A stretch of DNA of 64,000 bases from Candidatus Kapaibacterium sp. (GCA_963664875.1 OY761611.1:340511-404510), one strand, 5' to 3'; positions 22,175 through 34,577 are shown, counted from the first letter of the stretch. Numbers and translations are program-made. The notes: generated by a model from the letters alone, not told the origin.

Positions 22175-22783
22175 ATGAAAATTGGTATATATGGGGGAAG
22201 TTTTAATCCCATTCATAATGCACATATTCAAATGGCAAAATGTTTTTCAGAGCAAATGAAGCTCGACAAATGCATTTTTGTTCCTAATCGAATTTCTCCA
22301 TTCAAAACAGAAGAAAATGTCATAGAATCGATATTTCGCCTTGAAATGGTAAATATTGCAGTAGAAGGATTTGATAAGTTTGAAGTCTCAGATTTTGAAC
22401 TAACCAATTCGCAGGAAATATCATATACATACTTGACTCTTGAACATTATAGAAATATTTTCCCGAATGATGAGCTGTTTTTGCTAATCGGATTAGATAA
22501 TGCTGTTAATTTTGACAAATGGAAAAATTGGGAGCTTATACTCAATTATGTTTCTCTTTGTATAGTTGATAGACCGGAGATAGCAGACAAGGAAGGGAAA
22601 GAGAAAATAATAAAGGCTCTCTCAAATAAATCGAAAGAGCCTCATTGGGTCAGTGCACCACTAATGGAGATTTCATCATCTATAATACGCTCTAAAGTTG
22701 CAAAAGGTTTCAAAATAAATGAGCTTGTTCCAAAAAAAGTTGAAGAATATATTTACAAGCATAATTTATATTCTAATATTTAG
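22175..22783 (+). CDS. nadD: Nicotinate-nucleotide adenylyltransferase
   Basis: GIYGGSFNPIHNAH (H/TxGH nucleotidyltransferase motif) and NadD-like length. Confidence 0.85.
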   Translation: MKIGIYGGSFNPIHNAHIQMAKCFSEQMKLDKCIFVPNRISPFKTEENVIESIFRLEMVNIAVEGFDKFEVSDFELTNSQEISYTYLTLEHYRNIFPNDELFLLIGLDNAVNFDKWKNWELILNYVSLCIVDRPEIADKEGKEKIIKALSNKSKEPHWVSAPLMEISSSIIRSKVAKGFKINELVPKKVEEYIYKHNLYSNI

Positions 22784-23687
22784 AAACATTGTAGTCCGCA
22801 AGACCGCCTTCAATATTGATAATTATTACAGCCGTGCCGGAATTATCAGATTTGGAGTAGTAATAATTACCTTTATCTTCAAACCCGTCAAAATTGAAAG
22901 AACTCAATGCAGAATTTGTAAATATTTTACAATTTGATTCTTTTGGAATGCTAATATTTATATCTGAGACTCCGCTTTTGATATTTACTGTACAAGAATC
23001 AGACTGATTACCTAACACCAAATCAAAATCAGAAGCTCCCATGTTTAGGTTTAATGTTTTGACTGGAATATTTTTCAAATCAAAATCAGCATCACTTGCA
23101 CCAATGTTAAAATGCAAATCCCATTCTGTTTTATTATCCAACAAAATTTTGGCTTCGTTCGTAAAATTCAAATCTTTTAACTCTGTAACCTGGTCATAAG
23201 AAAAGTCAATAACCAGAGCAGAATCACTATTCACTGAGCTATTGCATTTAGAAGATTCAGTATAGGTTTTTGCTTTGAAGTACTTATTTTCAGAATCGAA
23301 ATCTGTTATTTCAAATGAGCCTGCTCCACCATTAAAGTTGAGTATTGCTTTCGAAATATCGGAATGCTTTTCAACAGAATAATAACTCTCAGTATTTACA
23401 GAAGATAATTTGTGTTCGACTTTTTCGGAAATTTCCTCGACAGCAGAAACACCTGAAGAGAAAATACGCATTACTATGAGTGCAAGGAAAACAGCAGAAA
23501 ATGATGCTAAAATTCTTTTCCACATCTCAGAGATGCTAAGCATAGAAATGCCAAATATTATCAAAAGTGCCGGCCAAAATAAGTTTGAGGATATATTAGA
23601 AAAATCTACAAATCCAAAATTTGATAAAAGGACTGAGATGCCTAAACTAATAAAAAATACACCCCAAAAAAGAGAAGAGGTTTTCAT
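22773..23687 (-). CDS. LiaF-like / DUF4097-type membrane-anchored stress-response protein
   Basis: Two N-terminal TM helices followed by a Ser/Asn/Asp-rich repetitive beta-rich C-terminal domain; ATGA-coupled to the upstream PspC-domain gene. Confidence 0.5.
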   Translation of the reverse strand: MKTSSLFWGVFFISLGISVLLSNFGFVDFSNISSNLFWPALLIIFGISMLSISEMWKRILASFSAVFLALIVMRIFSSGVSAVEEISEKVEHKLSSVNTESYYSVEKHSDISKAILNFNGGAGSFEITDFDSENKYFKAKTYTESSKCNSSVNSDSALVIDFSYDQVTELKDLNFTNEAKILLDNKTEWDLHFNIGASDADFDLKNIPVKTLNLNMGASDFDLVLGNQSDSCTVNIKSGVSDINISIPKESNCKIFTNSALSSFNFDGFEDKGNYYYSKSDNSGTAVIIINIEGGLADYNVSKY

Positions 23688-24079
23688 ATATTTCGTTCCC
23701 CAATTTGATTTTCAGATTTGATGTTCTTATACAGTAGAGCTGTTCCCAGACCAAGAAGGATTAGTGCAAAATAAATTTGTGAATCGATATCAGGAATTAT
23801 ATAGTCCAACAAAAACAAAACTCCTAAAGAAATGAGAATATACGCTAAAACATTTCTTGAATTGCGTGGAGTGCCTGAAATAACTTCTCTTCTGACTACA
23901 ACTCCGTAATCAGCTACAATCCATAACAAAATATATGCAATTATGCCTAAACCACCTGTAAATACTGCAAGAATGAACACTATTCTCACGAGGACTACAT
24001 CAATATTGAAATAGTCGGACAATCCGGAACAGACACCGGCAATCATTCTTTTCGGTCTGTTTCTAAAAAAACGTTCCAT
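23684..24079 (-). CDS. PspC-domain membrane protein
   Basis: RNRPKRMIAGVCSGLSDYFNIDVVLVRIVFILAVFTGGLGIIAYILLWIV is a canonical PspC domain. Confidence 0.8.
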   Translation of the reverse strand: MERFFRNRPKRMIAGVCSGLSDYFNIDVVLVRIVFILAVFTGGLGIIAYILLWIVADYGVVVRREVISGTPRNSRNVLAYILISLGVLFLLDYIIPDIDSQIYFALILLGLGTALLYKNIKSENQIGERNI

Positions 24080-24142
24080 TTTTTTGCCTCCAATAAGTAA
24101 GTTTAATAGTATATACGGTATTATTGGAGTGGGGTTACTGAC

Positions 24143-27100
24143 TTATTTCAAAAATTTTACCATTGCACCATAATTTTTATCAACCTTAAACCCAATTTTT
24201 TTAAGGAAATCTTGAATTTCGAAGTGCGTTTTTACAACTTCTATATCTTTTTGTTTCAGTCTCTCAAAAAATACTTCAAGCATACTGCTTCCAAGTCCTA
24301 AACCTTTTAGTTCCTGTACTATAACAGTACCGTCAAGAAATACAGTGTTTTTATCTATCTCTTTGAAGCTCAAACCACCAACTAATCTATCATACTTGTC
24401 TTGCATCACATAGTATCTGTATCCTTCTCCGTATTTCATCGTGTAGTTTTCTTTATGGAATAATCTATAAAGTAAACCTATTTCAGAAGGTTTGAAAGTT
24501 TCATAAATGAAGTAATTATTCTTACCTGCATCTACAATTTTTGTCTTTATAGTATTGCCAAATATATTATCAGTATAGTCATAAGCTAACTGTTTTGGTA
24601 TCAATTGATAAGGAAATACCATTTTACTAAATACTAATTTGTCGTTTTTGTTAGTAAGATTAAATTGTAAGTCTGATAATTCATTTAGCTCTGTGACATC
24701 TGTATAATCTCTTAAGTCTATAATTTTCAACAGCCTGTCAAAGGCATTTCTTATTTCGATAGAATGATTTCGAAAATATGTGTGCCTGAAGAAGTAGTAT
24801 CTATTGTAATCAGAAACCTGATTAAGTTCATATTTGTCAAAAAATGTAAAAATAGTATCTATAGTTGCTTCAGGGGTAGCTGCATCATTAAGGAATTGCC
24901 AGTTAATAAAATTGTCAATTGCATTTGATAATATCATTGGAATAAAGCACTTAGGATAATCTTTAAGATACTTTTTCAATTCGTAGAGTAACTGATTTCT
25001 GCCATCAACAAAATCATATTTTTGAAAATCTGATTCAAGTTCTTTTAAGAAGTTAAGTCCCTCTTTTTCGCCTAATACTTCCATAATGGAATCAAAAATC
25101 CAATTCAAATCGAGGTGACCGGAAATCCAAGAATAATGAGATATAGTCTTTTTATAGAAATTTTTATAAAATGGCAAAATCAGAGAAATAGGAGAAGAGT
25201 AATAGACCCAGCCGTTTAGCGATAGCAGTCTGCCGGCATCCATATAGTCTTTATTGGGTAATATTACATTAGACATTGAAATGAACCCCGGAATTATTTT
25301 TTTTCCGCTATTTCTCCAGCCCATCAAAATAGATTTCATTGAGTACACAAATATTTTTTGTAATTGTGATAAATCCGCCTTCTTGTCAGCAGATAAAATC
25401 TCATTAGACAAAATTCTGATATGTCCCCAAGCTGTCAACTCATCATGGTAAATAACTGATCTTATACTCAATTCAGGGCGGGCACAACCTAATTTTGGCA
25501 AGACTTTAGAACCATAAGGATAAGACGAGATTATCATCAGCCAAAAAACTGTTTCCAGATTCCTACGCGATTTTAAATTTTCGTTGATAACTAATTGAAA
25601 ATCAAAACGTTCTCCATTTTTAGTATTGACACACATCCTAAAAATATTATTCTCGTGTGTGTGTGTTATATTTGAAATCCATATACCATACTCAGTTAAA
25701 TCATCAAGACAAAATTCATGCTTATCAAAAGCAAGCATTACTGATTGCTTCAAAAAAGTCGTAGTTGTCAAAATAGAAAACAGCTGAGATTTTGCTTTTT
25801 CGGGAACTCCATCGTCAAATGTAATTTTCTTTTTCCACTCATTTTTATCTTCTACTCGGAAAGCATTTTGGATTTTTTTCTCATAGTATTCCGAAACTTC
25901 AATAAAGTACTTATGAGCTATTTCAGATATTTTCTCATCGTCATCATGCATCATCCAATTTACCAATTCACTTCTGACCGGTTCGTAATAGTGTCCATAT
26001 TTTTTTACAAATTGCACAAGCAACCTGAAAATATTCTCAAACTGTTTCACTAAAAGTCTATTTACCGGCCATTTGAGTTGAGTTCGATAAATAAATAGCC
26101 TTTGTCTTAGGGTTTCTAATCTCCTTTTTTCAAATTTATGAGAGGTAATTTTAGCAATATATTCTTCATTGAGGAATGAAAAACCGGATTCCAAAAACGT
26201 GAAATACCCCGATGAGTGAAATGCGAAAGCATCATGAGTTAACAAAATCATATATGCTCGACACCTTATGTTTTCAATAGGGTGATACGCAAGTGATTCT
26301 AACCTAAGCTTGATGAGTTCTATTAAGTTAGAGTCTGTATTGCTTATTAGTAGCTCAATATTAGTAAGAGCAGTCTGATTGTCATTAGATTTATCTGCAA
26401 CAATCAAAGAATAATTTGCAATCAGCTCAGCAAGACCGGGAGATTTGAAGTTTTCGCTACTTGACTTACTGCTGTTTGATATAAGAGGTAGTTTTACTCT
26501 TTTATGGAAATATTTTAAATCAACTTCCCAAATTTCTTTGACAGGAGAAAAGTCTCGAAAAGGCTGATTCCCAGCCCAAAGCAATGGTTGTTTAGCAAGT
26601 ATATCAAAATCTAAATTATTTGTTTCATGCGTGTAAATCAGATTTCCGATTTGATAACAATTTTCATCTGTTTTTCTGCAAATCAGCTCTCTGTTATTTA
26701 CTCTGTCGTATATTGAGTTTTGACGTATGAGTATATCACTTTCTAAAATTCCGAGATCTCTGTAAAACCATCTTGGTATTCTTATATAAAAGCCCTGCAT
26801 CTTAAGATCAACAAAGTTTCGTTCATAACATGAATCTATAAGTGATTGATAATTCTTTAGAATAAGCTTTCTATTTAAAGTCTGCTTGGCAGTAATTTCT
26901 CCATTCTTTGCGTTAAAATCTTGTTCAAGTATTTTGAAATTGACTATTCGCTCATATTTTGCAAGTGATTTATTAGCTACCATAATCAACTTATGACAGT
27001 AGTCATGCAAATCTGATTTGGAGAGTCCGATTATTAGCTCGTCTTTAAAATCAGGAACAATAAAAAGAATATTATAAGGTTTTCCGTCGCCTACGAGAAA

Positions 27101-28684
27101 CACTCTTTTGATGCCGGGCACACCTTCGAACTTGCTTTCTACATTTCTCGGAGCAACAGTTTGTCCTTTGTTGTTTTTATAAATATCTTTTACTCTGTCG
27201 ATAATTTGGAAATGTCCTAATTTATCCTTGACAAAGATGTCACCAGTAGCAATATGGTAGTCATTTTCATTATTTTGAGGATACTCTATGACAGATTCAG
27301 GAGGAGCATCTTCCAAATATTTCGCCACATAATGTCCGGATATTGACATTTCGCCATTATCTGCAAGTTTCGGATAAATACCGGGAAGAGCTATTCCTGT
27401 AGAGTTTGCTACGTATTCGCCGGGAGGAGTCATTGTAATTCCACCCGTGGCTTCGGTCATTCCAAATCCGCTGGATAGTTTAATATTATATTTATTGAAA
27501 AACTTAAATACTTTTGGATCTAAATACCCGGCTGCAGATAGTCCCCATTTCAATTTTTTTCCAAGTACATTGCTTATTGCTTCTTCCGGAGCAATTCTAT
27601 GTTTGTCCATCATTAACATTATGTTGTCATAAGCTTGCTGCCAACGCAAAGGAATACTTATGAATATTGTCGGGTTTACAGTTGGGAATAATTTGAATAG
27701 AGTAGAGCCTGAAGGCGAACCTGTAAATGTATAAGTACCATTCCAATAGATGGTTCCCAAAAGTTCCAAATATCTGCCGAAAGTATGGAATAACGGCAAG
27801 TATGAGAGCATCACTTCTTTATCACCGATAAAGGGAACAGAAGCACCTCTGGCAAATCTTTTAGAGACAAGGGAATAATTGCTGAAAGAGATACCTTTGG
27901 GCTGACCGGTTGAGCCGGAAGTGAACATAACTGTTGACACTTCATTTGTATTGATAGATTCATATTTACTTATGCATTCTTCTATTTCATCAAGTGTAAG
28001 TTCTGAAGTAGCAACAGATAAATTGAGACAATTAAATAGTTCAACGTTGGAAAAAACTTTTGTAGTAAATATTTCAAGATTATTATTAATATCTTTTCTC
28101 AACTCATCAAGTAGTTTCAGTCTTTCTAATTTGTCAGTTACGGCTATATCAATTTGAAGCGTTTTAAAGATAGAGAGCAATTCGGATTTTGACGAATTTA
28201 TATTGATGGGAGTAACAAAGATTCCATGCATCAGGCAACTTAGATCAGTTAGGGCAGAGTACACACCATTATCACAAAATATTGCTACTCGTGGTCTTTT
28301 GCTTTTTTGTAAAAGTGCAGCGGCTATAGATCTGGTTAAATCATAAACTCTTTCATAAGAAAATTTTTGAGAAGGAGTAGCCCCCATATCCCTAAACAGA
28401 ATAGCATCCTTATTTCTATATAAACGTTGCTTAAACATATCAAGCAACGAATAATTAGATTTTTGTATTAGTTCGAAAGCACGTTCAGCCAATAAATATC
28501 TATCTTCTATATTTTGAACGTATTTAAGAAATGTTACACGAAATACTAAATCGAGCAATTCAAAGATTATATCAGCATCTTTGCCATGATATTCGAAATA
28601 GAATCGTTTTATAGTTTCGAAATGTTTTTTTAAATAACCATCGTAGTTTTTTGCTTCTTTCAAAATATCTCTAATGTCAGGCAT
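24143..28684 (-). CDS. Giant tripartite protein: AMP-forming acyl-CoA synthetase/adenylation (ANL) domain, ~700-aa unassigned middle region, C-terminal GNAT N-acyltransferase
   Basis: ANL motifs MFTSGSTGQPKG (A3), GFGMTEATGG (A5), ATGDIFVKD...IDRVKD (A7/A8). C-terminal GNAT motif A VIVQELKGLGLGSSML and ...FLKKIGFKV. 1513 aa, no signal peptide. Confidence 0.7.
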   Translation of the reverse strand: MPDIRDILKEAKNYDGYLKKHFETIKRFYFEYHGKDADIIFELLDLVFRVTFLKYVQNIEDRYLLAERAFELIQKSNYSLLDMFKQRLYRNKDAILFRDMGATPSQKFSYERVYDLTRSIAAALLQKSKRPRVAIFCDNGVYSALTDLSCLMHGIFVTPININSSKSELLSIFKTLQIDIAVTDKLERLKLLDELRKDINNNLEIFTTKVFSNVELFNCLNLSVATSELTLDEIEECISKYESINTNEVSTVMFTSGSTGQPKGISFSNYSLVSKRFARGASVPFIGDKEVMLSYLPLFHTFGRYLELLGTIYWNGTYTFTGSPSGSTLFKLFPTVNPTIFISIPLRWQQAYDNIMLMMDKHRIAPEEAISNVLGKKLKWGLSAAGYLDPKVFKFFNKYNIKLSSGFGMTEATGGITMTPPGEYVANSTGIALPGIYPKLADNGEMSISGHYVAKYLEDAPPESVIEYPQNNENDYHIATGDIFVKDKLGHFQIIDRVKDIYKNNKGQTVAPRNVESKFEGVPGIKRVFLVGDGKPYNILFIVPDFKDELIIGLSKSDLHDYCHKLIMVANKSLAKYERIVNFKILEQDFNAKNGEITAKQTLNRKLILKNYQSLIDSCYERNFVDLKMQGFYIRIPRWFYRDLGILESDILIRQNSIYDRVNNRELICRKTDENCYQIGNLIYTHETNNLDFDILAKQPLLWAGNQPFRDFSPVKEIWEVDLKYFHKRVKLPLISNSSKSSSENFKSPGLAELIANYSLIVADKSNDNQTALTNIELLISNTDSNLIELIKLRLESLAYHPIENIRCRAYMILLTHDAFAFHSSGYFTFLESGFSFLNEEYIAKITSHKFEKRRLETLRQRLFIYRTQLKWPVNRLLVKQFENIFRLLVQFVKKYGHYYEPVRSELVNWMMHDDDEKISEIAHKYFIEVSEYYEKKIQNAFRVEDKNEWKKKITFDDGVPEKAKSQLFSILTTTTFLKQSVMLAFDKHEFCLDDLTEYGIWISNITHTHENNIFRMCVNTKNGERFDFQLVINENLKSRRNLETVFWLMIISSYPYGSKVLPKLGCARPELSIRSVIYHDELTAWGHIRILSNEILSADKKADLSQLQKIFVYSMKSILMGWRNSGKKIIPGFISMSNVILPNKDYMDAGRLLSLNGWVYYSSPISLILPFYKNFYKKTISHYSWISGHLDLNWIFDSIMEVLGEKEGLNFLKELESDFQKYDFVDGRNQLLYELKKYLKDYPKCFIPMILSNAIDNFINWQFLNDAATPEATIDTIFTFFDKYELNQVSDYNRYYFFRHTYFRNHSIEIRNAFDRLLKIIDLRDYTDVTELNELSDLQFNLTNKNDKLVFSKMVFPYQLIPKQLAYDYTDNIFGNTIKTKIVDAGKNNYFIYETFKPSEIGLLYRLFHKENYTMKYGEGYRYYVMQDKYDRLVGGLSFKEIDKNTVFLDGTVIVQELKGLGLGSSMLEVFFERLKQKDIEVVKTHFEIQDFLKKIGFKVDKNYGAMVKFLK

Positions 28685-28727
28685 AAAAAATTCCTATGGT
28701 AGTTAGGAAATAAATACTTAGATTATA

Positions 28728-28747
28728 ATCGAGAAAAATGTCTCGAT
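28728..28747. promoter_or_regulatory. Inverted repeat ATCGAGA-n6-TCTCGAT in the divergent intergenic region
   Basis: 7-bp perfect IR located ~40 nt upstream of the 24143..28684 start and ~200 nt upstream of the divergent ACL-like genes; candidate operator. Confidence 0.3.
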
Positions 28748-28951
28748 ATAATTTACTAAGCAGTGTAAACTCTTATTGTAGATACTTATTTAGCCAGATA
28801 ATATTGCTAAACAGTTTTACGATTGCAATATAACAAAGCTATTAAATATCATAAATAATAAAATAAAGACTTTTCTAATATCTCGCAAACACAGAAATTA
28901 AAAATGTCCTTATGGGCAATAAATAAAAATCATAAAAATAAAGGTAATGTT

Positions 28952-30214
28952 ATGCAAATTTCCGGATTGAGATACGGCTCTCGTTTGCTAAATCTGGTTG
29001 AATTTCCATACGCAGATTTTCTTACCGGTAGTTCTACTAAAGAAGAAATTCAATCTATGCTCGACAAAAACGGTAAGGTTGTTATCAAACCTCAGTTTTC
29101 AGGTGGAGTAGGCAAAAAAGGTAAAGCCGGTCTTGTAAAAATAGTTGATAACATTCATGATGCTTTCAGAGCAAAAGAGCAACTTTACTTTGCTGAACAT
29201 ACACACGGAAATAAAACTATAAGAGCAAATGGCGTAACTTTCGAAGAGTTTATCCCTTCGGAAGTTGAGTTATATTTTTCAATAACTAATTCCACTATAG
29301 AGAGAAAGCCAATTTTCACAATCACACCGAATGGTGGTGTTGATATAGAAGATTTGCCGGCAGAAAAGAAAAACGTTACTTGGATAGATCCTCTTATTGG
29401 TATCAAATCTTTTGATATTACAAATGCTCTAAATGATTTGAACTGTCCTTTGGAATTTATTTCTCCTTTGGTACAATATCTACCAAAATTATGGGATTTG
29501 TACAGCAATTATGGTGTATCTACACTTGAAATAAATCCTATAAGAATGAAAAGGGTCGGATCCTCATATGTTCCTGTTGCGTGCGACCTCAAAGTTGCAT
29601 TCGATCAAGATAGCCCTGATTGGAAACGCGTCGAACTTCCAATGTCAATTTTTCAATCAGAAACTACTGAATTCGAATCTGAAATCAATAAATTGAGAAC
29701 ATATCAAGGGCAGAGCGACGTTGTTGAGCTTAATGCCAATGGTTCTATTATTCCGTTTATGTTTGGTGGTGGTGCTAACTCCGCTGCTACTGAAACTTTA
29801 GGCAGCCGTGCAATTTTCGCTTCAGATTTTGGTGGCAACCCACCTTATGAAAAAATGTATGAAATATCTAAAATCGTCTTCAAGCACTGGTTAGACAAAG
29901 CTAACACACTTTTGCTAATCGGAGGGAAGGCAAACAACACTGATATTTATGTAACATTCAAAGGCATTTTTGATGCACTCAGAGACCATATTGCAGAGCA
30001 TGGCAATAAGCCAATTTACACTGTAATTGGAAGAGGTGGTCCAAACCTTATACAAGGTATGTATTACGGTAAAGATATTTTAGATACTATGAAATTGCCT
30101 TATAAAATGTTCGGGTTTGATTCTTCTATGATACAGACTTTAGAATATGCCAAACGTATTGACGAATGGTGGGGCAAAGAAGGCAAGGCAGATTACATAA
30201 AAAAACATATGTAA
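28952..30214 (+). CDS. ATP-citrate lyase family, small (AclB/SucC-like, ATP-grasp) subunit
   Basis: Collinear with the succinyl-CoA synthetase beta / ACLY N-terminal module: VIKPQFSGGVGKKGKAGLVKIV, LEINPIRM, FMFGGGANSAATETLG, LLLIGGKANNTD. Start at MQISGLRY (28952); the track ORF starts at 28904. Confidence 0.7.
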   Translation: MQISGLRYGSRLLNLVEFPYADFLTGSSTKEEIQSMLDKNGKVVIKPQFSGGVGKKGKAGLVKIVDNIHDAFRAKEQLYFAEHTHGNKTIRANGVTFEEFIPSEVELYFSITNSTIERKPIFTITPNGGVDIEDLPAEKKNVTWIDPLIGIKSFDITNALNDLNCPLEFISPLVQYLPKLWDLYSNYGVSTLEINPIRMKRVGSSYVPVACDLKVAFDQDSPDWKRVELPMSIFQSETTEFESEINKLRTYQGQSDVVELNANGSIIPFMFGGGANSAATETLGSRAIFASDFGGNPPYEKMYEISKIVFKHWLDKANTLLLIGGKANNTDIYVTFKGIFDALRDHIAEHGNKPIYTVIGRGGPNLIQGMYYGKDILDTMKLPYKMFGFDSSMIQTLEYAKRIDEWWGKEGKADYIKKHM

Positions 30215-30256
30215 TCTATAATTTTTAGTATTAGAAATTAAATAACGGAATAAACC

Positions 30257-32980
30257 ATGACTCAATTGCAAACCAAACCCTTTCCATATTATGTAGGGGT
30301 TTACTCTCTCGAAGAATTAGTCAATAAAGACTCAAGAGTGTGTGTCATAAATATATTAGGCGGCGAAAGCCGAAAAGTTACTCCTGTTTCTCATGAATAT
30401 AGCAATGGCAATGTAGTTGCCGGTGTTCAATATGGCAGAAGAGGTGAATTAGAAACAAAAAAAGGTAATATACCTGTTTTCCGCTCTATCAGAGATGTAA
30501 TGGATAACGGAATTACATTTGATGTTGGTGTTATCTATTTACCTCCAAGTGCTGTAAGCCAAGCAGTAGCTGAATTAGTAAATTTCAATCCTGACTTGAA
30601 ACGCATAGTAATTGTTACAGAAAAAGTGTCTTCTTATGATTCTATGGCAATTCGTGTTATTTGCCAGGAAGCCGGTGTTGATGTGATTGGCTGTAACTGT
30701 TTGGGTGTTGCAAACGTTTGGGACCATGTTCGTGTTGGTGGAGCTCTTGGTGGTGACAAGCCGGAAGAAACATTGCGTCCGGGTTCTGTTGCAATTCACT
30801 CCAACTCAGGTAACTTCACAACTACCATATCAGAATATCTAAGAACTGCCGGATTTGGTATTTCAACTGCAGTTTCATCAGGTAAAGATGTATATATACA
30901 TTTTGCACTTCCTGAATTTTTGTTTGCCGCTCAGAATGATCCGCGTACTAAAGCAATAGCTCTGTATGTAGAGCCGGGTGGATATTATGAAAAACAAGCT
31001 TTGGATTGGATAGAAGAAAGAAGATTTGCTTTCAATAAACCTATTGTTGTTTGCGTAACCGGAAGATGGAAAAAAGATTTGCAAAGATCTTGCGGACACG
31101 CTGGAGCTCTCGCAGGTGGCGGTGACGATGCAATAAGTAAAGAGCAATGGTTTGATGATTACTTTGGCGTGGGTGTCTTTGATCCTGAAAATCCTGTAGT
31201 AAGCAAACGTGGTGTTCGTATTGCTTCTATTCAAGATTTTCCTAAGGCAATGCACGCAGTGTATGCTAAGATTGATGAAAAACCTGACTTCGATGCAACA
31301 GGTGACTTGTCTTTGAAATTATGGATAAGTGACAACGTAGTAAAAGTTCCAAAAGAATTAGATTTACAAGTTGTTCAGGCAATTGAACCATATAACAAAC
31401 AGATTCTTGAACAGAACAAACAAATAGGTGCGAATTATCTAAGACAGAGCATGGCTGATAAATCAGGTGCTTCCCGTATGGATAAGAAAACTCAGGTAGC
31501 ACATCTACATGGAAAATCTATATTAGATTTGTCTAAATATTCTATAGAAGAGAATTTGTACTTCTCGTTGGCTAAAATTTTGCCTGATCAAGATGATGTT
31601 AATTCAATAAATATTCTCTTAAATCTCTTTTTGCAGGTAGAATCACATCAAATAGCTAATCTACAATATGCAAAAGGAAATGATTGTACGCCAAATGCAT
31701 TTATGGCTTCTCAGTTAGCTGCTATTAGTAATAAACCACTACTTGCAAATATTGCTAATTATAGCGCTATGCTAATAGATGTAATAAGAGAAAACGGTAT
31801 AGATACTAATACTAAAGATTTAGGTTCTTTGCTCAATAACTTTATAGAAGAAAAGATACTTACAGATGATGCTTTAGAAAATGAAGCTGCTGATATTTTA
31901 GAAAAAGAGATTTTGAAATCTAAAAAGCAATGTATTTCCCTCAATGTCATTCAGCATATATTGAAATATGCAGCAGATAAAAAGAAAAATATCAGAAACA
32001 AGTACGAGTTTTTATTATCTGGCATGTCGCTATGTATCTTCTGGAAGCCTATGTTAGAAAAACGTATTACCAGAGATGTAGCTGAAAATGCACTCAGTTA
32101 TTTTTATAGTGTTGCACAATTAGTTGCTTTTTCGGTTACTGATGCCGACAGCAATAAAATGTGGAAAGAACTGACTGCCGGCAAAATCAAAAATATTACT
32201 AATAGTTTCACAGATAATGTATTTAAGATACTTTTCAACAGAGTACCAAAACCTGAAGAGTTGACCGAATTGAAATATCTTGTTGGACTCACTTTGACAA
32301 ATGGTCCGGGTACTATCTCTGCAAAGGGAGCAAAAGAAACAGTATCTGCAAGAAACTATATTCCAACTGCTTACGTAGGATTTTTAGTTAATACAGGTCT
32401 TGCTCATGGTGGTAATGGTTTCGAAGCTGTAGAGTTTTTGTTAAACAATTTCAAAGATTCTGATCTTAAGAATCCGGGCGATAAAAACCATGAAATTGAT
32501 TTAGCTACTATAGCAAAAAATGCTGCTAAAGAATACAGAAAATTCAAAAAACTCGAAAAAGAAAGTGGAAAAATGAACTACGCAAAAATCCCTTGCGTTA
32601 ATCATCCTGTTTTCAAAGGTAATGATGTAAATATTGATCCTCGCGAAGATTTCGTAAGAAAAGAACTCGAACAATCAAATATTTATAACATTTTCTTGGA
32701 TTTCTACCACAAACTTGTTGTTGAGTTATTCAATGAAGGTGCAACTAAAAACGTATTCTGTGTCAATGTTGATGCAGTTATTTCAGTCATTGCACTCAAA
32801 CTTGTTTGGAATGATTTACAAAAAGGAACACTTTCCAAAAAACAAGTCCAGGATCTTGTATTTATTTTATTCCTAATTGGTAGAGCTGTGGGTGTATCTG
32901 CGGAAATAGCAGACCACAGGGATCGTGGTCAGGATATGGACTGTAGAACTCCACAATCAGCACTGGGATTTGTACTGTAA
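30257..32980 (+). CDS. ATP-citrate lyase family, large subunit (SucD-like CoA-binding domain with phospho-His, plus citrate-synthase/citryl-CoA-lyase-like C-terminal domain), with ~250-300 extra residues between the modules
   Basis: CoA-binding/SucD-like N-terminus with SCGHAGALAGGGDD (active His loop, cf. GHAGA). C-terminal part matches the ACLY citryl-CoA-lyase module by eye: LTLTNGPGTISAKGA, CVNHPVFKGNDVNIDPRED, FCVNVDAVISV, FLIGRAVGVSAEIADHRDRG. Confidence 0.7.
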   Translation: MTQLQTKPFPYYVGVYSLEELVNKDSRVCVINILGGESRKVTPVSHEYSNGNVVAGVQYGRRGELETKKGNIPVFRSIRDVMDNGITFDVGVIYLPPSAVSQAVAELVNFNPDLKRIVIVTEKVSSYDSMAIRVICQEAGVDVIGCNCLGVANVWDHVRVGGALGGDKPEETLRPGSVAIHSNSGNFTTTISEYLRTAGFGISTAVSSGKDVYIHFALPEFLFAAQNDPRTKAIALYVEPGGYYEKQALDWIEERRFAFNKPIVVCVTGRWKKDLQRSCGHAGALAGGGDDAISKEQWFDDYFGVGVFDPENPVVSKRGVRIASIQDFPKAMHAVYAKIDEKPDFDATGDLSLKLWISDNVVKVPKELDLQVVQAIEPYNKQILEQNKQIGANYLRQSMADKSGASRMDKKTQVAHLHGKSILDLSKYSIEENLYFSLAKILPDQDDVNSINILLNLFLQVESHQIANLQYAKGNDCTPNAFMASQLAAISNKPLLANIANYSAMLIDVIRENGIDTNTKDLGSLLNNFIEEKILTDDALENEAADILEKEILKSKKQCISLNVIQHILKYAADKKKNIRNKYEFLLSGMSLCIFWKPMLEKRITRDVAENALSYFYSVAQLVAFSVTDADSNKMWKELTAGKIKNITNSFTDNVFKILFNRVPKPEELTELKYLVGLTLTNGPGTISAKGAKETVSARNYIPTAYVGFLVNTGLAHGGNGFEAVEFLLNNFKDSDLKNPGDKNHEIDLATIAKNAAKEYRKFKKLEKESGKMNYAKIPCVNHPVFKGNDVNIDPREDFVRKELEQSNIYNIFLDFYHKLVVELFNEGATKNVFCVNVDAVISVIALKLVWNDLQKGTLSKKQVQDLVFILFLIGRAVGVSAEIADHRDRGQDMDCRTPQSALGFVL

Positions 32981-33007
32981 ATTCCTTAATCTGAATTGTT
33001 AAATTTA

Positions 33008-33044
33008 AAAGGCTGCATATTTCCAATAAGAAAATGCAGCCTTT
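33008..33044. terminator. Bidirectional terminator hairpin
   Basis: aaaggctgcat-[15-nt loop]-atgcagccttt, between convergent genes. Confidence 0.7.
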
Positions 33045-33071
33045 TCTTTAAGGCAGATACTTTAAAATGTT

Positions 33072-34385
33072 TTATCTTTTTATTCTGATTGCTTTTACCG
33101 GCCAATCTACATTCTCATCTGTAACTTCATATATTTCAATGACTCCTTTGTCTTTCAAAATATTTACAAGAGCATAAGTTGGACCTGTTGCATAACCTTT
33201 GTTAGCCAAAATTCTGGTAACAAATGATCTGAGACCAAGATATTGGAAATTATCACTATTAGCTGTAATAGTTTCAGACTTATCCAATTCTTTTAACAAT
33301 TGTTCTTCAGTGATAATCCTGTCGCCTTCGTTGCTGTCGTCGTTCATAGACTGATTAAGATTGATTTTGCCTAATACTTTCAATCCTATACGAGATTCTG
33401 TATTCAATTCACCTAATTTAAAATCAGAACCTTCGAAAGCCTCTATCGTTGCTTCTCGTATAGCTTCCTGTTCTGTTATGCTAAATCTAAATTCGTCGAT
33501 TCCTGACTCAGCATTGCTGATAATCAGCATTAAATCATGGTGGAGTTCTTCTGCAGTTCTTAGTTCGTCAATAGAAAAATAGATATTATGAGCAACTTTA
33601 TTTCTAATAGAGAATAATTCCCGCCATTTTTTTTCAAATTGCTTATCCTGAAATGCTGTTTTGAAAAACTTATTATAGTTTGTTTGCAAATCATTTTTCA
33701 ATTTGAATAAGTCTTCCGGGGAGGAAGCAAGCATTATTTTATTTACTATGCTCTCTTGCTTATTAAATCCTGCTACATGTTTGTAAATAACTTCTCCTAA
33801 GTCATTAAAATCTATGAGAGAAACATCTAAATCAACAAATCCGGAAAAGAGATTTTCGTTTTCTTTTCTAACTTTAATTTTATCAATGAGTTGCTTAGGA
33901 AAGTTAGTGTTCCACCAATTAACTCCGATTTTGAGGGTAAAAAATTTGACTATATATCTTCTCAGAGCATTTTCAACTTCATTTACAAGTGGGTAAATAT
34001 CAACGGCAATTTTTGCAGAAACATCGTCTTTTAAAATTTTCAAATTAGAGAAAGATAGTTTTGCTTTTAAATGTTTTATTAGCTTAAATCTAAATTTTTC
34101 CAATTGCTCAAAGTTTGAGCTCCAAACATTTAGTAAAAAAGCTGAGTCAATCAAATCATTTAATGTATTGCTTGTATCAACGGATTGTATAATCACATCA
34201 ATTCCGGTCCCTTTGTCGTGAATTCTAAACTGTTTTTTTGCATAATTAGATTGATCTTCGGGTGTTTCCCATAAAGATTCCATAAATAAAAGACCGTGTA
34301 CCATGGAGCTCTCAGTTGAAATTTCAGCATTACCATATTTATCAATTGCCAGAATTTCAAAGTTTAAAGGGATGTCGTTATTCAT
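33072..34385 (-). CDS. Hypothetical protein with Rx4H HEPN-like motif (possible Abi/defence-associated RNase)
   Basis: No TM/signal; motif ELFSIRNKVAHNIYF fits the HEPN Rx4-6H signature as in Abi_2/Swt1-type HEPN domains; the rest is unassigned. Orphan gene bracketed by a terminator and a promoter region. Confidence 0.4.
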   Translation of the reverse strand: MNNDIPLNFEILAIDKYGNAEISTESSMVHGLLFMESLWETPEDQSNYAKKQFRIHDKGTGIDVIIQSVDTSNTLNDLIDSAFLLNVWSSNFEQLEKFRFKLIKHLKAKLSFSNLKILKDDVSAKIAVDIYPLVNEVENALRRYIVKFFTLKIGVNWWNTNFPKQLIDKIKVRKENENLFSGFVDLDVSLIDFNDLGEVIYKHVAGFNKQESIVNKIMLASSPEDLFKLKNDLQTNYNKFFKTAFQDKQFEKKWRELFSIRNKVAHNIYFSIDELRTAEELHHDLMLIISNAESGIDEFRFSITEQEAIREATIEAFEGSDFKLGELNTESRIGLKVLGKINLNQSMNDDSNEGDRIITEEQLLKELDKSETITANSDNFQYLGLRSFVTRILANKGYATGPTYALVNILKDKGVIEIYEVTDENVDWPVKAIRIKR

Positions 34386-34577
34386 ATTACCTCTGTAGTA
34401 TATAATAAATAAAGTAAATATACAAAATATTAGCTACATAAATGAAAACATGTGAACAATTATTCGCTCTATCCGTATTGTATTAAAGTCAAATATTGGT
34501 ATTTAATCTCAACTGTTTTGATTATATTGGCTATCCGTCAGATTTGTTCGATACTTCTAAATAAACGATAAATATTT

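What the first reader, a model, noticed from the sequence alone, without database searches (positions are those of the whole stretch)
24143..32980. Divergent juxtaposition of an acetyl-CoA-generating (ACL-like) pair and the giant ANL-GNAT enzyme, sharing a 219-bp control region with an inverted repeat
The ANL-X-GNAT gene (minus strand) and the AclB/AclA-like genes (plus strand) are transcribed divergently from one AT-rich 219-bp intergenic region (28685-28903). That region contains the perfect inverted repeat ATCGAGA-n6-TCTCGAT (28728-28747). This head-to-head arrangement, with a shared operator-like palindrome, suggests the two could be co-regulated. One unit would make an acyl-CoA from an organic acid (citrate to acetyl-CoA, or a related reaction). 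The other would activate acyl groups and transfer them via a GNAT. Together they could form a self-contained acyl-donor supply and acyl-transfer module, for example for lipoamino-acid or protein acylation. This is the best candidate in the window for an undescribed multi-gene system. The flanking genes (PspC/LiaF-like envelope-stress pair on one side, HEPN-like orphan on the other) are unrelated, so the unit looks like a three-gene cassette.
Basis: inference. Interest (0 to 1): 0.65.

Follow-up and report, generated by a model that had tools for sequence, protein, structure and literature searches.

The report
Giant acyl-transfer enzyme beside citrate enzymes
A 1513-residue uncharacterised bacterial enzyme (acid-activating, kinase-like and acetyltransferase parts) sits next to ATP-citrate-lyase-like genes here and next to other citrate-cycle entry genes in distant bacteria, so it probably acts on that metabolic junction, but the three genes are not a fixed cassette.

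Summary
The gene layout is real. A 1513-aa ANL–X–GNAT gene (minus strand) lies head-to-head with an AclB-like/AclA-like pair, in a Candidatus Kapaibacterium genome.

- **Palindrome:** it is present, but a bare 7-bp inverted repeat arises in 42% of shuffles. It is found only in the two closest relatives. It is the core of a leader hairpin or operator 44-63 nt upstream of the giant gene's ATG. It is absent from a distant locus (L165) with the same divergent layout.
- **Not a fixed cassette:** the pair lies next to the giant in about 4 of 39 giant lineages, in two different arrangements. It lies next to the giant in 0 of 80 ACL-centred metagenome loci.
- **Recurrent link to the citrate node:** the giant family has a fixed ~1530-aa architecture and occurs in FCB-group phyla, Acidobacteria and others. 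It repeatedly neighbours citrate synthase (two subfamilies), aconitase, isocitrate dehydrogenase (two types), PEP carboxylase, fumarase and the methylaspartate pathway, in more than six arrangements (15 of 39 lineages).
- **New structural detail:** the 'X' region contains a protein-kinase-like fold. The ANL catalytic motifs are intact.
- **The ACL-like pair** is a highly conserved fusion of citryl-CoA-synthetase-like and citrate-synthase-like modules, resembling the postulated 'type II' ACL.

Best reading: an uncharacterised acyl-activating, acyl-transferring enzyme tied to the acetyl-CoA/citrate node, probably regulatory. Its target is unknown.

The parts
24143..28684 (-). Giant ANL–X–GNAT gene, 1513 aa. 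It belongs to a fixed-architecture family of ~1500-1600 aa.
   Evidence: ORF. Pfam/NCBIfam domains. Full-length homologues at ~40% identity across phyla. The middle region occurs only in this architecture: 256 hits among 1.84 billion representatives.
26819..28426 (-). ANL (adenylate-forming, long-chain acyl-CoA-synthetase-like) domain, residues 87-622
   Evidence: Pfam AMP-binding plus AMP-binding_C_3. Best NCBIfam matches are FadD11 and long-chain fatty-acid CoA ligases, all below their cut-offs. Core motifs TSGSTGxPKG, GFGMTEATGG, TGD, DRVKDIYK and the A10 lysine are conserved in 84 family members.
25715..26818 (-). Small beta domain plus alpha-helical solenoid, residues ~623-990. No Pfam family matches.
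   Evidence: AF2 model of residues 620-1513: pLDDT 85.6, pTM 0.72. No Pfam hit even at E<=1 in 20 members. Foldseek top hit is VPS34 helical-plus-kinase, E 2e-4.
24980..25702 (-). Protein-kinase-like fold domain, residues ~995-1235. N1139 is invariant and D1146 nearly so; no canonical HRD catalytic Asp is evident.
   Evidence: AF2 sub-model of residues 985-1365: pLDDT 89.9, pTM 0.87. All top 50 Foldseek PDB hits are kinase-fold proteins; the best are Bud32/PRPK, target TM 0.6-0.68, rmsd ~3.8 A over ~238 columns; 109 hits at E<=1e-3. Residue conservation.
24146..24586 (-). C-terminal GNAT acyltransferase domain, residues ~1367-1513
   Evidence: Pfam Acetyltransf_1/7/10/CG in 18-20 of 20 members. 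Foldseek hits to GNATs including GCN5, Ard1, NatD, PatZ 9it0 and MsPat 4orf.
28685..28903 (.). Divergent intergenic region. It extends to 28951 if the AclB-like gene starts at codon 17.
   Evidence: 79% column identity with L001/L002. No Rfam family above noise. The sigma-70 scan is uninformative: 58 sites against 47.9 expected.
28717..28760 (-). 44-nt imperfect palindrome whose core is ATCGAGA-n6-TCTCGAT (28728-28747). It is a leader hairpin or operator 44-63 nt upstream of the giant's ATG.
   Evidence: The core CGAGA-n6-TCTCG is conserved in L001 and L002 without compensatory changes. It is absent from L165, L081 and L082.
28691..28709 (-). Second small hairpin, TTCCTA-n7-TAGGAA, 7-25 nt upstream of the giant's ATG. 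It covers an AGGA Shine-Dalgarno-like element.
   Evidence: Five pairs are invariant in the three relatives.
28904..30214 (+). AclB-like subunit (ATP-grasp plus citrate-binding domain). The likely true start is 28952.
   Evidence: Pfam ATP-grasp_2 60.7 bits and Citrate_bind 60.7 bits, both above their cut-offs. It directly precedes the AclA-like gene in every locus that extends far enough upstream (77 loci).
30257..32980 (+). AclA-like subunit, 907 aa. Residues 1-300 are succinyl-/citryl-CoA-synthetase-alpha-like, with phospho-His H281. Then comes a conserved linker. Residues ~509-893 form a full-length citrate-synthase-like module (31781-32935).
   Evidence: Closest solved chain is the Hydrogenobacter citryl-CoA synthetase small subunit 6hxq_A. 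hhalign against citrate synthases: 68% probability, E 4.7e-5, with the His/His/Asp motifs aligned. Homologues are 62-73% identical across phyla with constant length 907-908.

Best explanation
The locus holds two separate units that are functionally related but not a fixed cassette.

(1) aclB-like and aclA-like form a two-gene operon. It encodes a highly conserved ATP-grasp/CoA-ligase enzyme fused to a complete citrate-synthase-like module. [quoted passage not shown] It would interconvert citrate + ATP + CoA with acetyl-CoA + oxaloacetate.

(2) The divergent 1513-aa gene belongs to an uncharacterised family with a fixed architecture: a catalytically intact long-chain-acyl-CoA-synthetase-like adenylating domain, a beta domain, a helical solenoid, a protein-kinase-like domain, a helical bundle and a GNAT.

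Shown: across phyla this gene is repeatedly placed beside genes for enzymes that make, cleave or convert citrate or feed oxaloacetate.

Inferred: the protein activates a carboxylic acid to an acyl-adenylate or acyl-CoA in its ANL domain and passes the acyl group through its GNAT domain to an amine acceptor. The acceptor is most likely lysines of citrate-node enzymes, in a Pat/PatZ-like regulatory logic with a built-in acyl-CoA generator. The kinase-like domain would bind nucleotide or the target. The effect would be to couple carboxylate/acyl-CoA supply to flux through citrate. Where citrate synthase and the ACL-like enzyme coexist, it could also prevent a futile cycle.

The palindrome is a clade-specific leader hairpin or operator of the giant gene, not a shared operator.
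For: Gene layout and domains.

Family breadth and fixed architecture.

Intact ANL motifs in 84 members.

Kinase-like fold.

GNAT structural neighbours include the protein acetyltransferases PatZ, MsPat, GCN5, Ard1 and NatD.

Recurrent neighbourhoods (enzyme identities above NCBIfam cut-offs):
- About 21 Bacteroidales loci read CS< ACN< | GIANT> IDH>, with IDH mostly 31-213 bp downstream on the same strand.
- CS of a different subfamily appears in four other arrangements (L015, L017, L028, L034/L046).
- A eukaryote-type IDH plus CS lies upstream in L017.
- PEP carboxylase lies directly upstream in L064.
- Glutamate mutase, methylaspartate ammonia-lyase and class I fumarase lie on either side of the giant in 6 Aminicenantes/Acidobacteria loci.
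- A fumarase C fusion and a pyruvate-carboxylase subunit lie nearby in L168.
- The ACL-like pair is divergent in the window, L001, L002 and L165, and convergent in L081 and L082. L082 reads CS< GIANT> <AclA <AclB.

At 60% identity clustering, 15 of 39 giant lineages have such a neighbour and 4 of 39 have the ACL-like pair. My rough estimate for a single-copy gene landing next to a given gene by chance is about 0.1% per lineage.

ACL-like identity.
Against: No experiment or expression data bears on this, and the acyl substrate and acceptor are unknown.

More than half of the giant lineages show no citrate-node gene within the flanks. The immediate neighbours outside the named cases are heterogeneous (L083, L164, L166, L167).

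The list of 'citrate-node' families was partly assembled after seeing the neighbours. Only the ACL and CS counts are clean tests.

The four ACL-adjacent lineages lie close together in the giant tree, so they may descend from one ancestral adjacency.

From the ACL side the link is invisible: 0 of 80 loci.

The kinase-like domain lacks an obvious HRD catalytic Asp.

The GNAT fold cannot by itself distinguish protein acceptors from small-molecule acceptors.

Pat-type enzymes carry an NDP-forming synthetase-like domain, not an ANL-type one.
Confidence: 0.45

Rival explanations
1. Small-molecule biosynthesis. The giant makes an N-acylated metabolite, such as an N-acyl amino acid, lipoamino acid or N-acyl-glutamate-type compound. 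The ANL domain activates a fatty or other carboxylic acid. The GNAT transfers it to an amine derived from the citrate → 2-oxoglutarate → glutamate branch. The kinase-like domain phosphorylates a substrate or product, as small-molecule kinases of this fold do. This is.
For: The ANL domain is most similar to long-chain fatty-acid CoA ligases and FadD11.

Small-molecule GNATs (serotonin N-acetyltransferase, AAC(6')) and a small-molecule kinase (corramycin phosphotransferase 8agy) are among the fold hits.

The Bacteroidales CS-ACN-IDH branch and the Aminicenantes glutamate-mutase cluster both centre on 2-oxoglutarate and glutamate.

L017 has a short-chain fatty-acid transporter upstream. L083 lies 3.7 kb from a plsX-fab cluster.
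Against: No lipid-export, membrane-anchoring or other biosynthetic partner genes recur near the giant.

Neighbours such as the ACL-like pair, CS and PEP carboxylase point to the acetyl-CoA/oxaloacetate entry step rather than to glutamate.

All ANL family matches are far below their curated cut-offs, so the substrate class is not established.
Confidence: 0.25
2. Self-regulating acyl-CoA synthetase. The protein's real job is carboxylate activation, for example acetate or a fatty acid to its CoA ester feeding citrate synthase. The GNAT acetylates the protein's own catalytic A10 lysine in cis, as AcuA does to AcsA and Pat does to Acs. The kinase-like and helical region is a sensor or scaffold.
For: The ANL motifs, including the A10 lysine, are invariant.

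GNAT control of ANL enzymes through that lysine is well established (AcuA–AcsA, Pat–Acs; PMC11255334 and PMC4053389 were found, abstracts only read).

An enzyme that produces acetyl-CoA would plausibly be placed next to CS.
Against: About 750 residues of strongly conserved extra domains seem excessive for an autoinhibitory switch.

The A10 region (TPKGSFNRK) is of the long-chain type, not the PxxxxGK motif recognised by Pat/AcuA (the motif comparison is from my own knowledge).

Placement beside ACL, which itself makes acetyl-CoA, is not explained.
Confidence: 0.12
3. Coincidental or merely inherited adjacency. The giant and the ACL-like pair are functionally unrelated. They lie together in this clade by descent. 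The other citrate-node neighbours reflect a few lineage-specific syntenies plus post hoc selection of 'related' families.
For: The pair accompanies the giant in only 2 of 80 genome loci, and the giant accompanies the pair in 0 of 80 ACL-centred loci.

The largest block, ~21 Bacteroidales loci, is a single lineage.

Immediate neighbours elsewhere are heterogeneous.

In L083 both genes are in one genome but apart.

The palindrome is clade-specific.
Against: ACL adjacency recurs at 40-43% giant identity in two different arrangements.

CS adjoins the giant in five or more distinct arrangements, involving two CS subfamilies and two non-orthologous IDH types. That pattern is expected from selection for proximity, not from inheritance.

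15 of 39 lineages is far above any random expectation (the expectation is my rough estimate).
Confidence: 0.18

Closest known systems
Pat/PatZ (YfiQ)-type bacterial protein lysine acetyltransferases
   Same: A large multidomain protein with a C-terminal GNAT, fused to an acyl-CoA-synthetase-related domain. Such enzymes control central-metabolic enzymes. The PatZ GNAT (9it0) is among the structural hits.
   Different: Pat's large domain is of the NDP-forming (succinyl-CoA-synthetase-like) type and is non-catalytic; that statement is from my own knowledge. Here the domain is an AMP-forming ANL domain with every catalytic motif intact. A kinase-like domain is also inserted. No sequence homology exists outside the GNAT.
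[quoted passage not shown]
   Same: The two-gene order is aclB then aclA. The components are an ATP-grasp plus citrate-binding subunit, and a CoA-binding/CoA-ligase subunit with a phospho-His, fused to a citrate-synthase-family module carrying the His/His/Asp motifs. The closest solved chain is the citryl-CoA synthetase small subunit 6hxq_A. The type II concept is described in PMC3522073, PMC5459899 and PMC6783814.
   Different: The AclA-like protein is 907 aa, against 617 aa for Chlorobium AclA (6hxj_B). Its C-terminal ~600 residues match no solved ACL, CCL or CS chain by sequence or profile. It scores below every NCBIfam cut-off. It occurs in heterotrophic lineages (Kapabacteria, Ignavibacteria, Acidobacteria, KSB1) and not only in autotrophs. 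It was not compared with the reference type II sequences (Mmc1_3638/3639).
AcuA–AcsA and Pat–Acs systems (a GNAT that acetylates the catalytic lysine of an ANL enzyme)
   Same: They pair an ANL acyl-CoA synthetase with a GNAT in one functional unit at the acetyl-CoA node.
   Different: Those are separate proteins with no kinase-like or helical module. Here the two are fused, about 750 residues apart, and the ANL domain is of the long-chain type.
AceK (isocitrate dehydrogenase kinase/phosphatase) and PknG–OdhI/GarA control of the TCA cycle
   Same: These are kinase-fold proteins dedicated to regulating TCA-cycle enzymes. In Bacteroidales the giant is followed directly by IDH on the same strand.
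   Different: This is a resemblance of logic only, recalled from my own knowledge. No AceK or PknG chain appears among the 50 listed fold hits, and the canonical catalytic loop is not evident.

Membership tests
ANL superfamily (adenylate-forming acyl-CoA synthetases) | AMP-binding N-domain plus C-terminal subdomain above Pfam thresholds | tested here: met
   PF00501 148 bits (cut-off 29.9) and PF23562 47 bits (cut-off 20.8); found in 20 of 20 family members.
ANL superfamily (adenylate-forming acyl-CoA synthetases) | Core motifs: A3 P-loop, A5, A7 TGD, A8 hinge and the A10 catalytic lysine | tested here: met
   TSGSTGxPKG, GFGMTEATGG, TGD, DRVKDIYK and TPKGSFNRK are conserved across 84 sequences.
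ANL superfamily (adenylate-forming acyl-CoA synthetases) | Assignment to a substrate-defined subfamily (e.g. FadD, Acs) | tested here: not met
   All 73 NCBIfam matches are far below their cut-offs; the best is FadD11 at 117 bits against a cut-off of 950.
GNAT acyltransferases | GNAT fold and family match | tested here: met
   PF00583 23.3 bits against a cut-off of 20.7 in the window protein, stronger in homologues. Foldseek GNAT hits have target TM 0.6-0.7.
Pat/PatZ class I protein acetyltransferases | NDP-forming acyl-CoA-synthetase-like domain fused to a GNAT | tested here: not met
   The fused synthetase domain is AMP-forming (ANL). No CoA_binding, Succ_CoA_lig or ATP-grasp_5 match occurs in the giant.
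Pat/PatZ class I protein acetyltransferases | Acetylation of protein lysines | not testable with these tools
   Needs biochemistry or an acetylome.
Protein-kinase-like fold | Bilobal kinase fold | tested here: met
   Sub-model pLDDT 89.9. The top 50 PDB hits are all kinase-fold proteins; Bud32/PRPK reach target TM 0.6-0.68.
Protein-kinase-like fold | Catalytic residues: beta3 Lys, HRD Asp, Asn, DFG Asp | tested here: inconclusive
   N1139 is invariant and D1146 nearly so, 7 residues apart. No conserved Asp lies where HRD would be, and the beta3 Lys is not invariant (E in the window protein). No structure-based alignment was available.
ATP-citrate lyase (AclAB) | Beta subunit with ATP-grasp and citrate-binding domains | tested here: met
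   PF08442 60.7 bits and PF16114 60.7 bits, both above their cut-offs.
ATP-citrate lyase (AclAB) | Alpha subunit with CoA-binding and CoA-ligase domains and a phospho-histidine | tested here: met
   PF02629 and PF13607 match. GHAGA H281 is invariant in 16 sequences.
ATP-citrate lyase (AclAB) | C-terminal citryl-CoA-lyase/citrate-synthase module with catalytic His, His and Asp | tested here: inconclusive
   hhalign against citrate synthases: 68% probability, E 4.7e-5, with AHGGNG, NHPVF and NVDA aligned. However, PF00285 scores 26.2 against a cut-off of 27, the citryl-CoA lyase NCBIfam model scores 31 against 212, and no solved chain matches this half.
ATP-citrate lyase (AclAB) | ATP- and CoA-dependent citrate cleavage | not testable with these tools
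   Needs an enzyme assay.
'Type II' ACL (Hugler & Sievert 2011; Mmc1_3638/3639, Endoriftia) | Orthology to the reference type II sequences | not tested
   The reference sequences were not obtainable with these tools. Only the published descriptions were read. The more distant loci L139-L163 (41-54% identity) may be that group.
Divergent operon pair with a shared operator | Head-to-head arrangement conserved among relatives | tested here: inconclusive
   It is present in the window, L001, L002 and L165. It is convergent in L081 and L082. The pair is absent from the other ~80 giant loci.
Divergent operon pair with a shared operator | Operator sequence conserved wherever the arrangement is conserved, or repeated in a regulon | tested here: not met
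   The motif occurs only in the window, in L002 and, as a core, in L001. It is absent from the L165 spacer. There is no other copy in the window.

The most novel reading that the evidence does not exclude
The giant is a previously unrecognised kind of metabolic regulator. A single polypeptide converts a signal carboxylate into its acyl-CoA (ANL domain) and writes that acyl group (GNAT), possibly together with a phosphate or nucleotide (kinase-like domain), onto the enzymes that make or cleave citrate. It would thereby set the direction of carbon flow at the acetyl-CoA/oxaloacetate/citrate junction in FCB-group bacteria, Acidobacteria and relatives. In organisms such as the one behind L082, which encode citrate synthase and an ACL-like enzyme on either side of it, it would prevent a futile ATP-burning cycle.
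Probability: 0.25. Interest if true: 0.85.

Novelty: new variant of a known kind. Interest (0 to 1): 0.6.

Why it matters
Three points would matter if the link is real.

- **A candidate for TCA-cycle control.** How bacteria outside the model Proteobacteria, Firmicutes and Actinobacteria control entry into the TCA cycle is largely unknown. This includes how organisms that hold both a citrate synthase and an ATP-dependent citrate-cleaving enzyme avoid futile cycling. A large conserved enzyme that sits beside these genes in many phyla is a concrete, testable candidate.
- **A new layout for acyl transfer.** An acyl-activating domain, a kinase-like domain and a GNAT fused in one protein would extend the known range of bacterial acyltransferase architectures.
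- **An unassayed enzyme family.** The ACL-like pair is 62-73% identical across phyla and is mostly annotated only as 'CoA-binding protein'. It occurs in many heterotrophs. This bears on using 'ACL' genes as markers of reductive-TCA autotrophy in metagenomes.

Tried and rejected
- **Sigma-70 promoter and terminator scan of 23600-34600:** 58 sites against 47.9 expected, uninformative.
- **Rfam scan of the spacer:** only noise, E 0.3-0.9 and far below gathering scores.
- **Search for further copies of the palindrome:** none in the window beyond a 2-mismatch site inside the aclB-like ORF. Among 166 loci the 6-bp core occurs only in L002 and at three unrelated positions.
- **Covariation in the leader hairpins:** 0 compensatory pairs in three sequences, so there is no power to tell RNA structure from a protein-binding site.
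- **Pfam on the middle region at E<=1:** nothing consistent.
- **PDB sequence search on the middle region:** nothing.
- **Literature searches for an ANL–GNAT or ANL–kinase–GNAT fusion, and for ACL in Kapabacteria:** no paper on either family. The Ignavibacterium album genome paper reports no ACL of any type in that strain.
- **Citrate synthase, aconitase and IDH:** none are encoded in the 64-kb window.
- **PspC/LiaF or the HEPN gene as conserved partners:** rejected. They are found only in L001/L002, or in no locus at all.
- **A distant 1600-aa branch member (L167):** no citrate-node neighbour.
Full report
**1. What is in the sequence**

Pfam gives these domains:
- Giant protein: AMP-binding (residues 87-446), AMP-binding_C_3 (506-622) and a C-terminal GNAT (1419-1499).
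- 436-aa protein: ATP-grasp_2 plus the ATP-citrate-lyase citrate-binding domain.
- 907-aa protein: CoA_binding, Succ_CoA_lig and a sub-threshold citrate-synthase match.

The window has about 33% G+C. The closest public relatives are two Candidatus Kapaibacterium MAGs, L001 and L002. Identity to them is 75% for the giant, 93% for the AclB-like protein and 88-89% for the AclA-like protein.

The repeat ATCGAGA-n6-TCTCGAT is at 28728-28747.

Two corrections to the observation:
- Homologues of the AclB-like protein are 419-422 aa and align from residue ~12-17. The in-frame ATG at 28952 is therefore the likelier start, and the spacer is about 267 bp.
- PspC and a LiaF-like gene follow the giant on the same strand after 63 bp and are syntenic in L001/L002. 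The downstream edge of the 'cassette' is therefore not established.

**2. The palindrome**

- A perfect 7-bp inverted repeat with a 0-12 nt spacer appears in 42% of dinucleotide-preserving shuffles of the spacer. The window as a whole carries 0.53 such repeats per 219 bp. As a bare observation it is not beyond chance.
- Demanding at least 3 G/C per arm lowers the frequency to 1.8%, but that criterion is post hoc.
- No second copy exists in the window.
- The repeat is the core of a 44-nt imperfect palindrome (28717-28760), 44-63 nt upstream of the giant's ATG. Read as the giant's leader RNA, the region folds at -25.8 kcal/mol against -15.6 ± 2.9 for shuffles (z = -3.5, 0 of 200 as good). A second hairpin (28691-28709) covers an AGGA element 10 nt before the ATG.
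- The core CGAGA-n6-TCTCG and the second hairpin are conserved in L001 and L002, in a spacer that is 79% identical overall, but without any compensatory change.
- The motif is absent from the spacer of L165, a distant locus with the same divergent layout, and from L081 and L082.
- Rfam and the promoter scan add nothing.

Conclusion: this is a plausible cis-element of the giant gene, specific to this clade. It is not evidence for a shared operator.

**3. Is the three-gene unit conserved?**

From the giant's side, a scan of one genome per species found 538 relatives. Of the best 80 loci (36-75% identity, up to 10 kb of flank), only L001 and L002 carry the ACL-like pair. Those two share the whole neighbourhood with the window: Dxs, NadD, LiaF and PspC.

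From the ACL side, a metagenome scan gave 80 loci (41-70% identity).
- The AclB-like gene directly precedes the AclA-like gene wherever the contig allows.
- None of the 80 has the giant nearby.

So this is not a conserved cassette.

The adjacency does recur, however. Contig-length coincidences between the two homologue lists led to two further loci, and sampling a further homologue on a long contig led to a third:
- L081, giant 43% identical: GIANT> <AclA <AclB.
- L082, giant 40% identical: CS< GIANT> <AclA <AclB.
- L165, giant 41% identical: AclA< AclB< | GIANT>, the same divergent layout as the window with a 134-bp spacer.

In L083 both genes are in one 4.2-Mb genome but apart.

**4. What the giant gene keeps as neighbours**

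I clustered all ORFs of the 80 loci and then ran targeted tblastn on 87 loci. Gene identities come from Pfam, and the CS, ACN and IDH calls are above their NCBIfam cut-offs. The arrangements found were:

| Loci | Arrangement |
|---|---|
| ~21 Bacteroidales loci | CS< ACN< \| GIANT> IDH>. CS is PRK14032-type, aconitase is mitochondrial-type, and IDH is the prokaryotic NADP type, mostly 31-213 bp downstream on the giant's strand |
| L015 | CS< GIANT> |
| L017 | SCFA-transporter> IDH> CS> x> GIANT> |
| L034, L046 | GIANT> CS< |
| L028 | CS 2.6 kb upstream |
| L082 | CS< GIANT> <AclA <AclB |
| L064 | PEP carboxylase directly upstream |
| 6 Aminicenantes/Acidobacteria loci | Glutamate mutase (MutE, MutL), methylaspartate ammonia-lyase and a class I fumarase/mesaconase-type enzyme, on either side of the giant |
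| L011 | Fumarase 2.6 kb downstream |
| L168 | cNMP-binding–fumarase C fusion and a pyruvate-carboxylase/OAD subunit |

In L015, L017, L028, L034 and L082 the CS belongs to a different subfamily (PRK09569, citrate (Si)-synthase) from the Bacteroidales one. In L017 the IDH is a non-orthologous, eukaryote-type enzyme.

Counts:
- Forty of the 87 loci have such a neighbour within the available flanks.
- After single-linkage clustering of the giants at 60% identity, 15 of 39 lineages do, and 4 of 39 have the ACL-like pair.
- My rough expectation for one single-copy gene to fall within about three genes of another by chance is 0.1-0.2% per lineage. CS alone, in at least 6 lineages and at least 5 arrangements, is far above that.

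Caveats:
- The family list was partly built after seeing the data.
- The four ACL-adjacent lineages are neighbours in the giant tree and may share one ancestral adjacency.
- Immediate neighbours elsewhere are heterogeneous (L083, L164, L166, L167).

The displacement of one CS or IDH type by another while proximity is kept is the strongest sign of selection for the link.

**5. What the giant protein is**

- The family is about 1500-1600 aa and alignable end to end at ~40% identity. It occurs in MAGs labelled Kapabacteria, Ignavibacteria, Bacteroidales, Zixibacteria, Krumholzibacteriota, Fibrobacteres, Calditrichota, Acidobacteria/Aminicenantes and others.
- The 750-residue middle region finds only 256 proteins among 1.84 billion representatives. 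Almost all have it at the same position in proteins of the same length; the shorter hits appear to be fragments. The architecture is therefore fixed.
- No Pfam family and no PDB sequence covers the middle region.
- The ANL domain keeps all core motifs, including the A10 lysine, in 84 sequences. It is probably a working adenylating enzyme. It resembles long-chain acyl-CoA ligases, but only far below family cut-offs.
- An AF2 model of residues 620-1513 (pLDDT 85.6, pTM 0.72) shows a beta domain, a helical solenoid, an alpha/beta domain, a helical bundle and the GNAT.
- In Foldseek the helical-plus-kinase part of VPS34 is the top hit, with Bud32, PRPF4B and mTOR also present. GNAT hits include PatZ, MsPat, GCN5, Ard1 and NatD.
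- A sub-model of residues 985-1365 (pLDDT 89.9, pTM 0.87) gives only kinase-fold proteins among its top 50 hits. Bud32/PRPK reach target TM 0.6-0.68 and rmsd about 3.8 A. There are 109 hits at E<=1e-3.
- N1139 is invariant and D1146 nearly so; together they could be the metal-binding Asn and Asp. No HRD-type Asp is evident, and the beta3 Lys is not invariant.

Literature searches found no description of this family or architecture.

**6. What the ACL-like pair is**

- The 907-908-aa protein is 62-73% identical across Ignavibacteria, Melioribacteraceae, Acidobacteria, KSB1, Calditrichota and Phycisphaerae. Sources usually name it 'CoA-binding protein' or 'succinyl-CoA synthetase alpha subunit/citrate synthase'.
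- Its first 300 residues are closest to the Hydrogenobacter citryl-CoA synthetase small subunit, 6hxq_A (E 2.6e-33 by phmmer, 1.6e-40 by profile). The phospho-histidine H281 is invariant.
- The C-terminal ~600 residues match no solved chain by sequence.
- Profile-profile comparison aligns residues 509-893 with nearly the whole of citrate synthase (columns 65-415 of 439). Probability is 68% and E is 4.7e-5. AHGGNG, NHPVF and NVDA lie on the catalytic His, His and Asp motifs.
- The 'extension' is thus a conserved linker plus a full-size citrate-synthase-like module, in place of the shorter lyase module of type I AclA (617 aa in 6hxj_B).
- This fits published descriptions of fused CCS-CCL and 'type II' ACL (PMC5459899, PMC3522073, PMC6783814). 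I could not compare it with the reference sequences, and no member has been assayed as far as the searched literature shows.
- In 8-9 metagenome loci a CS-like gene lies convergent to the pair.
- Whether the enzyme cleaves citrate, or works as an ATP-yielding citrate synthase as described for Desulfobacter (my own knowledge), is open.

**7. Mechanism**

| Status | Statement |
|---|---|
| Shown | Domain content; intact ANL motifs; kinase-like fold; fixed architecture; recurrent placement beside citrate-node genes |
| Inferred | The protein activates a carboxylate and transfers the acyl group through its GNAT |
| Inferred | The neighbourhoods tie this activity to the acetyl-CoA/oxaloacetate/citrate junction |

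I favour a regulatory protein acyltransferase, Pat-like in logic but with its own acyl-CoA generator and a kinase-like module. It would act on CS, ACL, ACN or IDH. L082, with CS on one side and the ACL-like pair on the other, suggests control of a potential futile cycle. Overall confidence is about 0.45: roughly 0.7 that the functional tie is real and roughly 0.35 for the protein-acylation mechanism.

Rivals:
- A small-molecule N-acyl transferase using a TCA-derived amine: 0.25.
- A self-acetylating acyl-CoA synthetase: 0.12.
- Coincidental or merely inherited adjacency: 0.18.

**8. Verdict**

- **Observation:** real, except that the bare palindrome is not statistically remarkable and the unit's boundaries are looser than stated.
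- **Interpretation:** partly supported. There is a functional link between the giant and acetyl-CoA/citrate metabolism, and the ACL adjacency recurs. There is no conserved three-gene cassette and no shared operator.
- **Novelty:** the parts are of known kinds (ANL, kinase fold, GNAT; an ACL-like enzyme). The fused architecture and its link to the citrate node are undescribed. I rate this a new variant of a known kind, with interest 0.6.

Noticed in passing
window 22773-24079 (-): PspC (131 aa) and a LiaF/DUF4097-like gene (304 aa) lie directly downstream of the giant on the same strand, with a 63-bp gap. They keep that position in L001 and L002, so they may be co-transcribed with the giant. 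In L083 a PspA gene lies 1.4 kb downstream of the giant.
   Followed up: partly
window 33072-34385 (-): A 437-aa ORF has a marginal Swt1-like HEPN match (28.9 bits against a cut-off of 27.5) and no NCBIfam family. It is absent from the corresponding position in L001 and L002, so it looks like a recent insertion next to the aclA-like gene.
   Followed up: partly
window 28904-28952: The AclB-like ORF probably starts at the second in-frame ATG (codon 17, 28952), which has AAGG 7 nt upstream. Homologues are 419-422 aa and align from residue ~12-17.
   Followed up: partly
L107, L111, L113, L114, L116-L119 (just downstream of the AclA-like gene): In one metagenomic lineage the ACL-like pair is followed by a convergent citrate-synthase-like gene, 25-33% identical to a Bacteroidales CS. 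This is another pairing of a citrate-forming with a citrate-cleaving candidate.
   Followed up: no
L051, L060, L063, L065, L066, L073: In Aminicenantes/Acidobacteria MAGs a glutamate mutase (MutE, MutL), methylaspartate ammonia-lyase and class I fumarase/mesaconase-type cluster lies next to the giant. It is upstream and divergent in four loci, and downstream on the same strand in two.
   Followed up: partly
L008, L014, L034, L075 (upstream, divergent); L009 (downstream): A UbiD-family (prFMN-dependent) decarboxylase of ~640-690 aa is a recurrent immediate neighbour of the giant in one Bacteroidales/Bacteroidota group. In L034 citrate synthase lies on the other side.
   Followed up: no
L168 14787-16649 and 20040-20599: In a Zixibacteria contig a fumarase C fused to a cyclic-nucleotide-binding domain lies 2.2 kb downstream of the giant. 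A pyruvate-carboxylase/oxaloacetate-decarboxylase alpha-type gene lies 7.4 kb downstream.
   Followed up: no
window 34578-37799 (+): A large hybrid sensor kinase (TPR repeats, PAS, HisKA, HATPase_c and receiver; 1073 aa) lies two genes beyond the aclA-like gene. Histidine kinases or response regulators also occur near the giant in several other loci (L006, L039, L058, L061, L062, L069, L072, L074). They are too common for this to count as a link.
   Followed up: no
P0001 vs P0388 (the window's own giant protein in public records): The same gene is recorded both as a 1362-aa product (later start) and as the 1513-aa product. The N-terminal 150 residues are conserved in homologues, so the long form is probably right.
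   Followed up: partly
L082 20478-23061 and 19129-20013: In L082 the AclB-like gene is preceded by a universal stress protein gene. A PAS histidine kinase plus a sigma-54-activator response regulator lie just beyond. These are possible regulators of the ACL-like operon in that organism.
   Followed up: no
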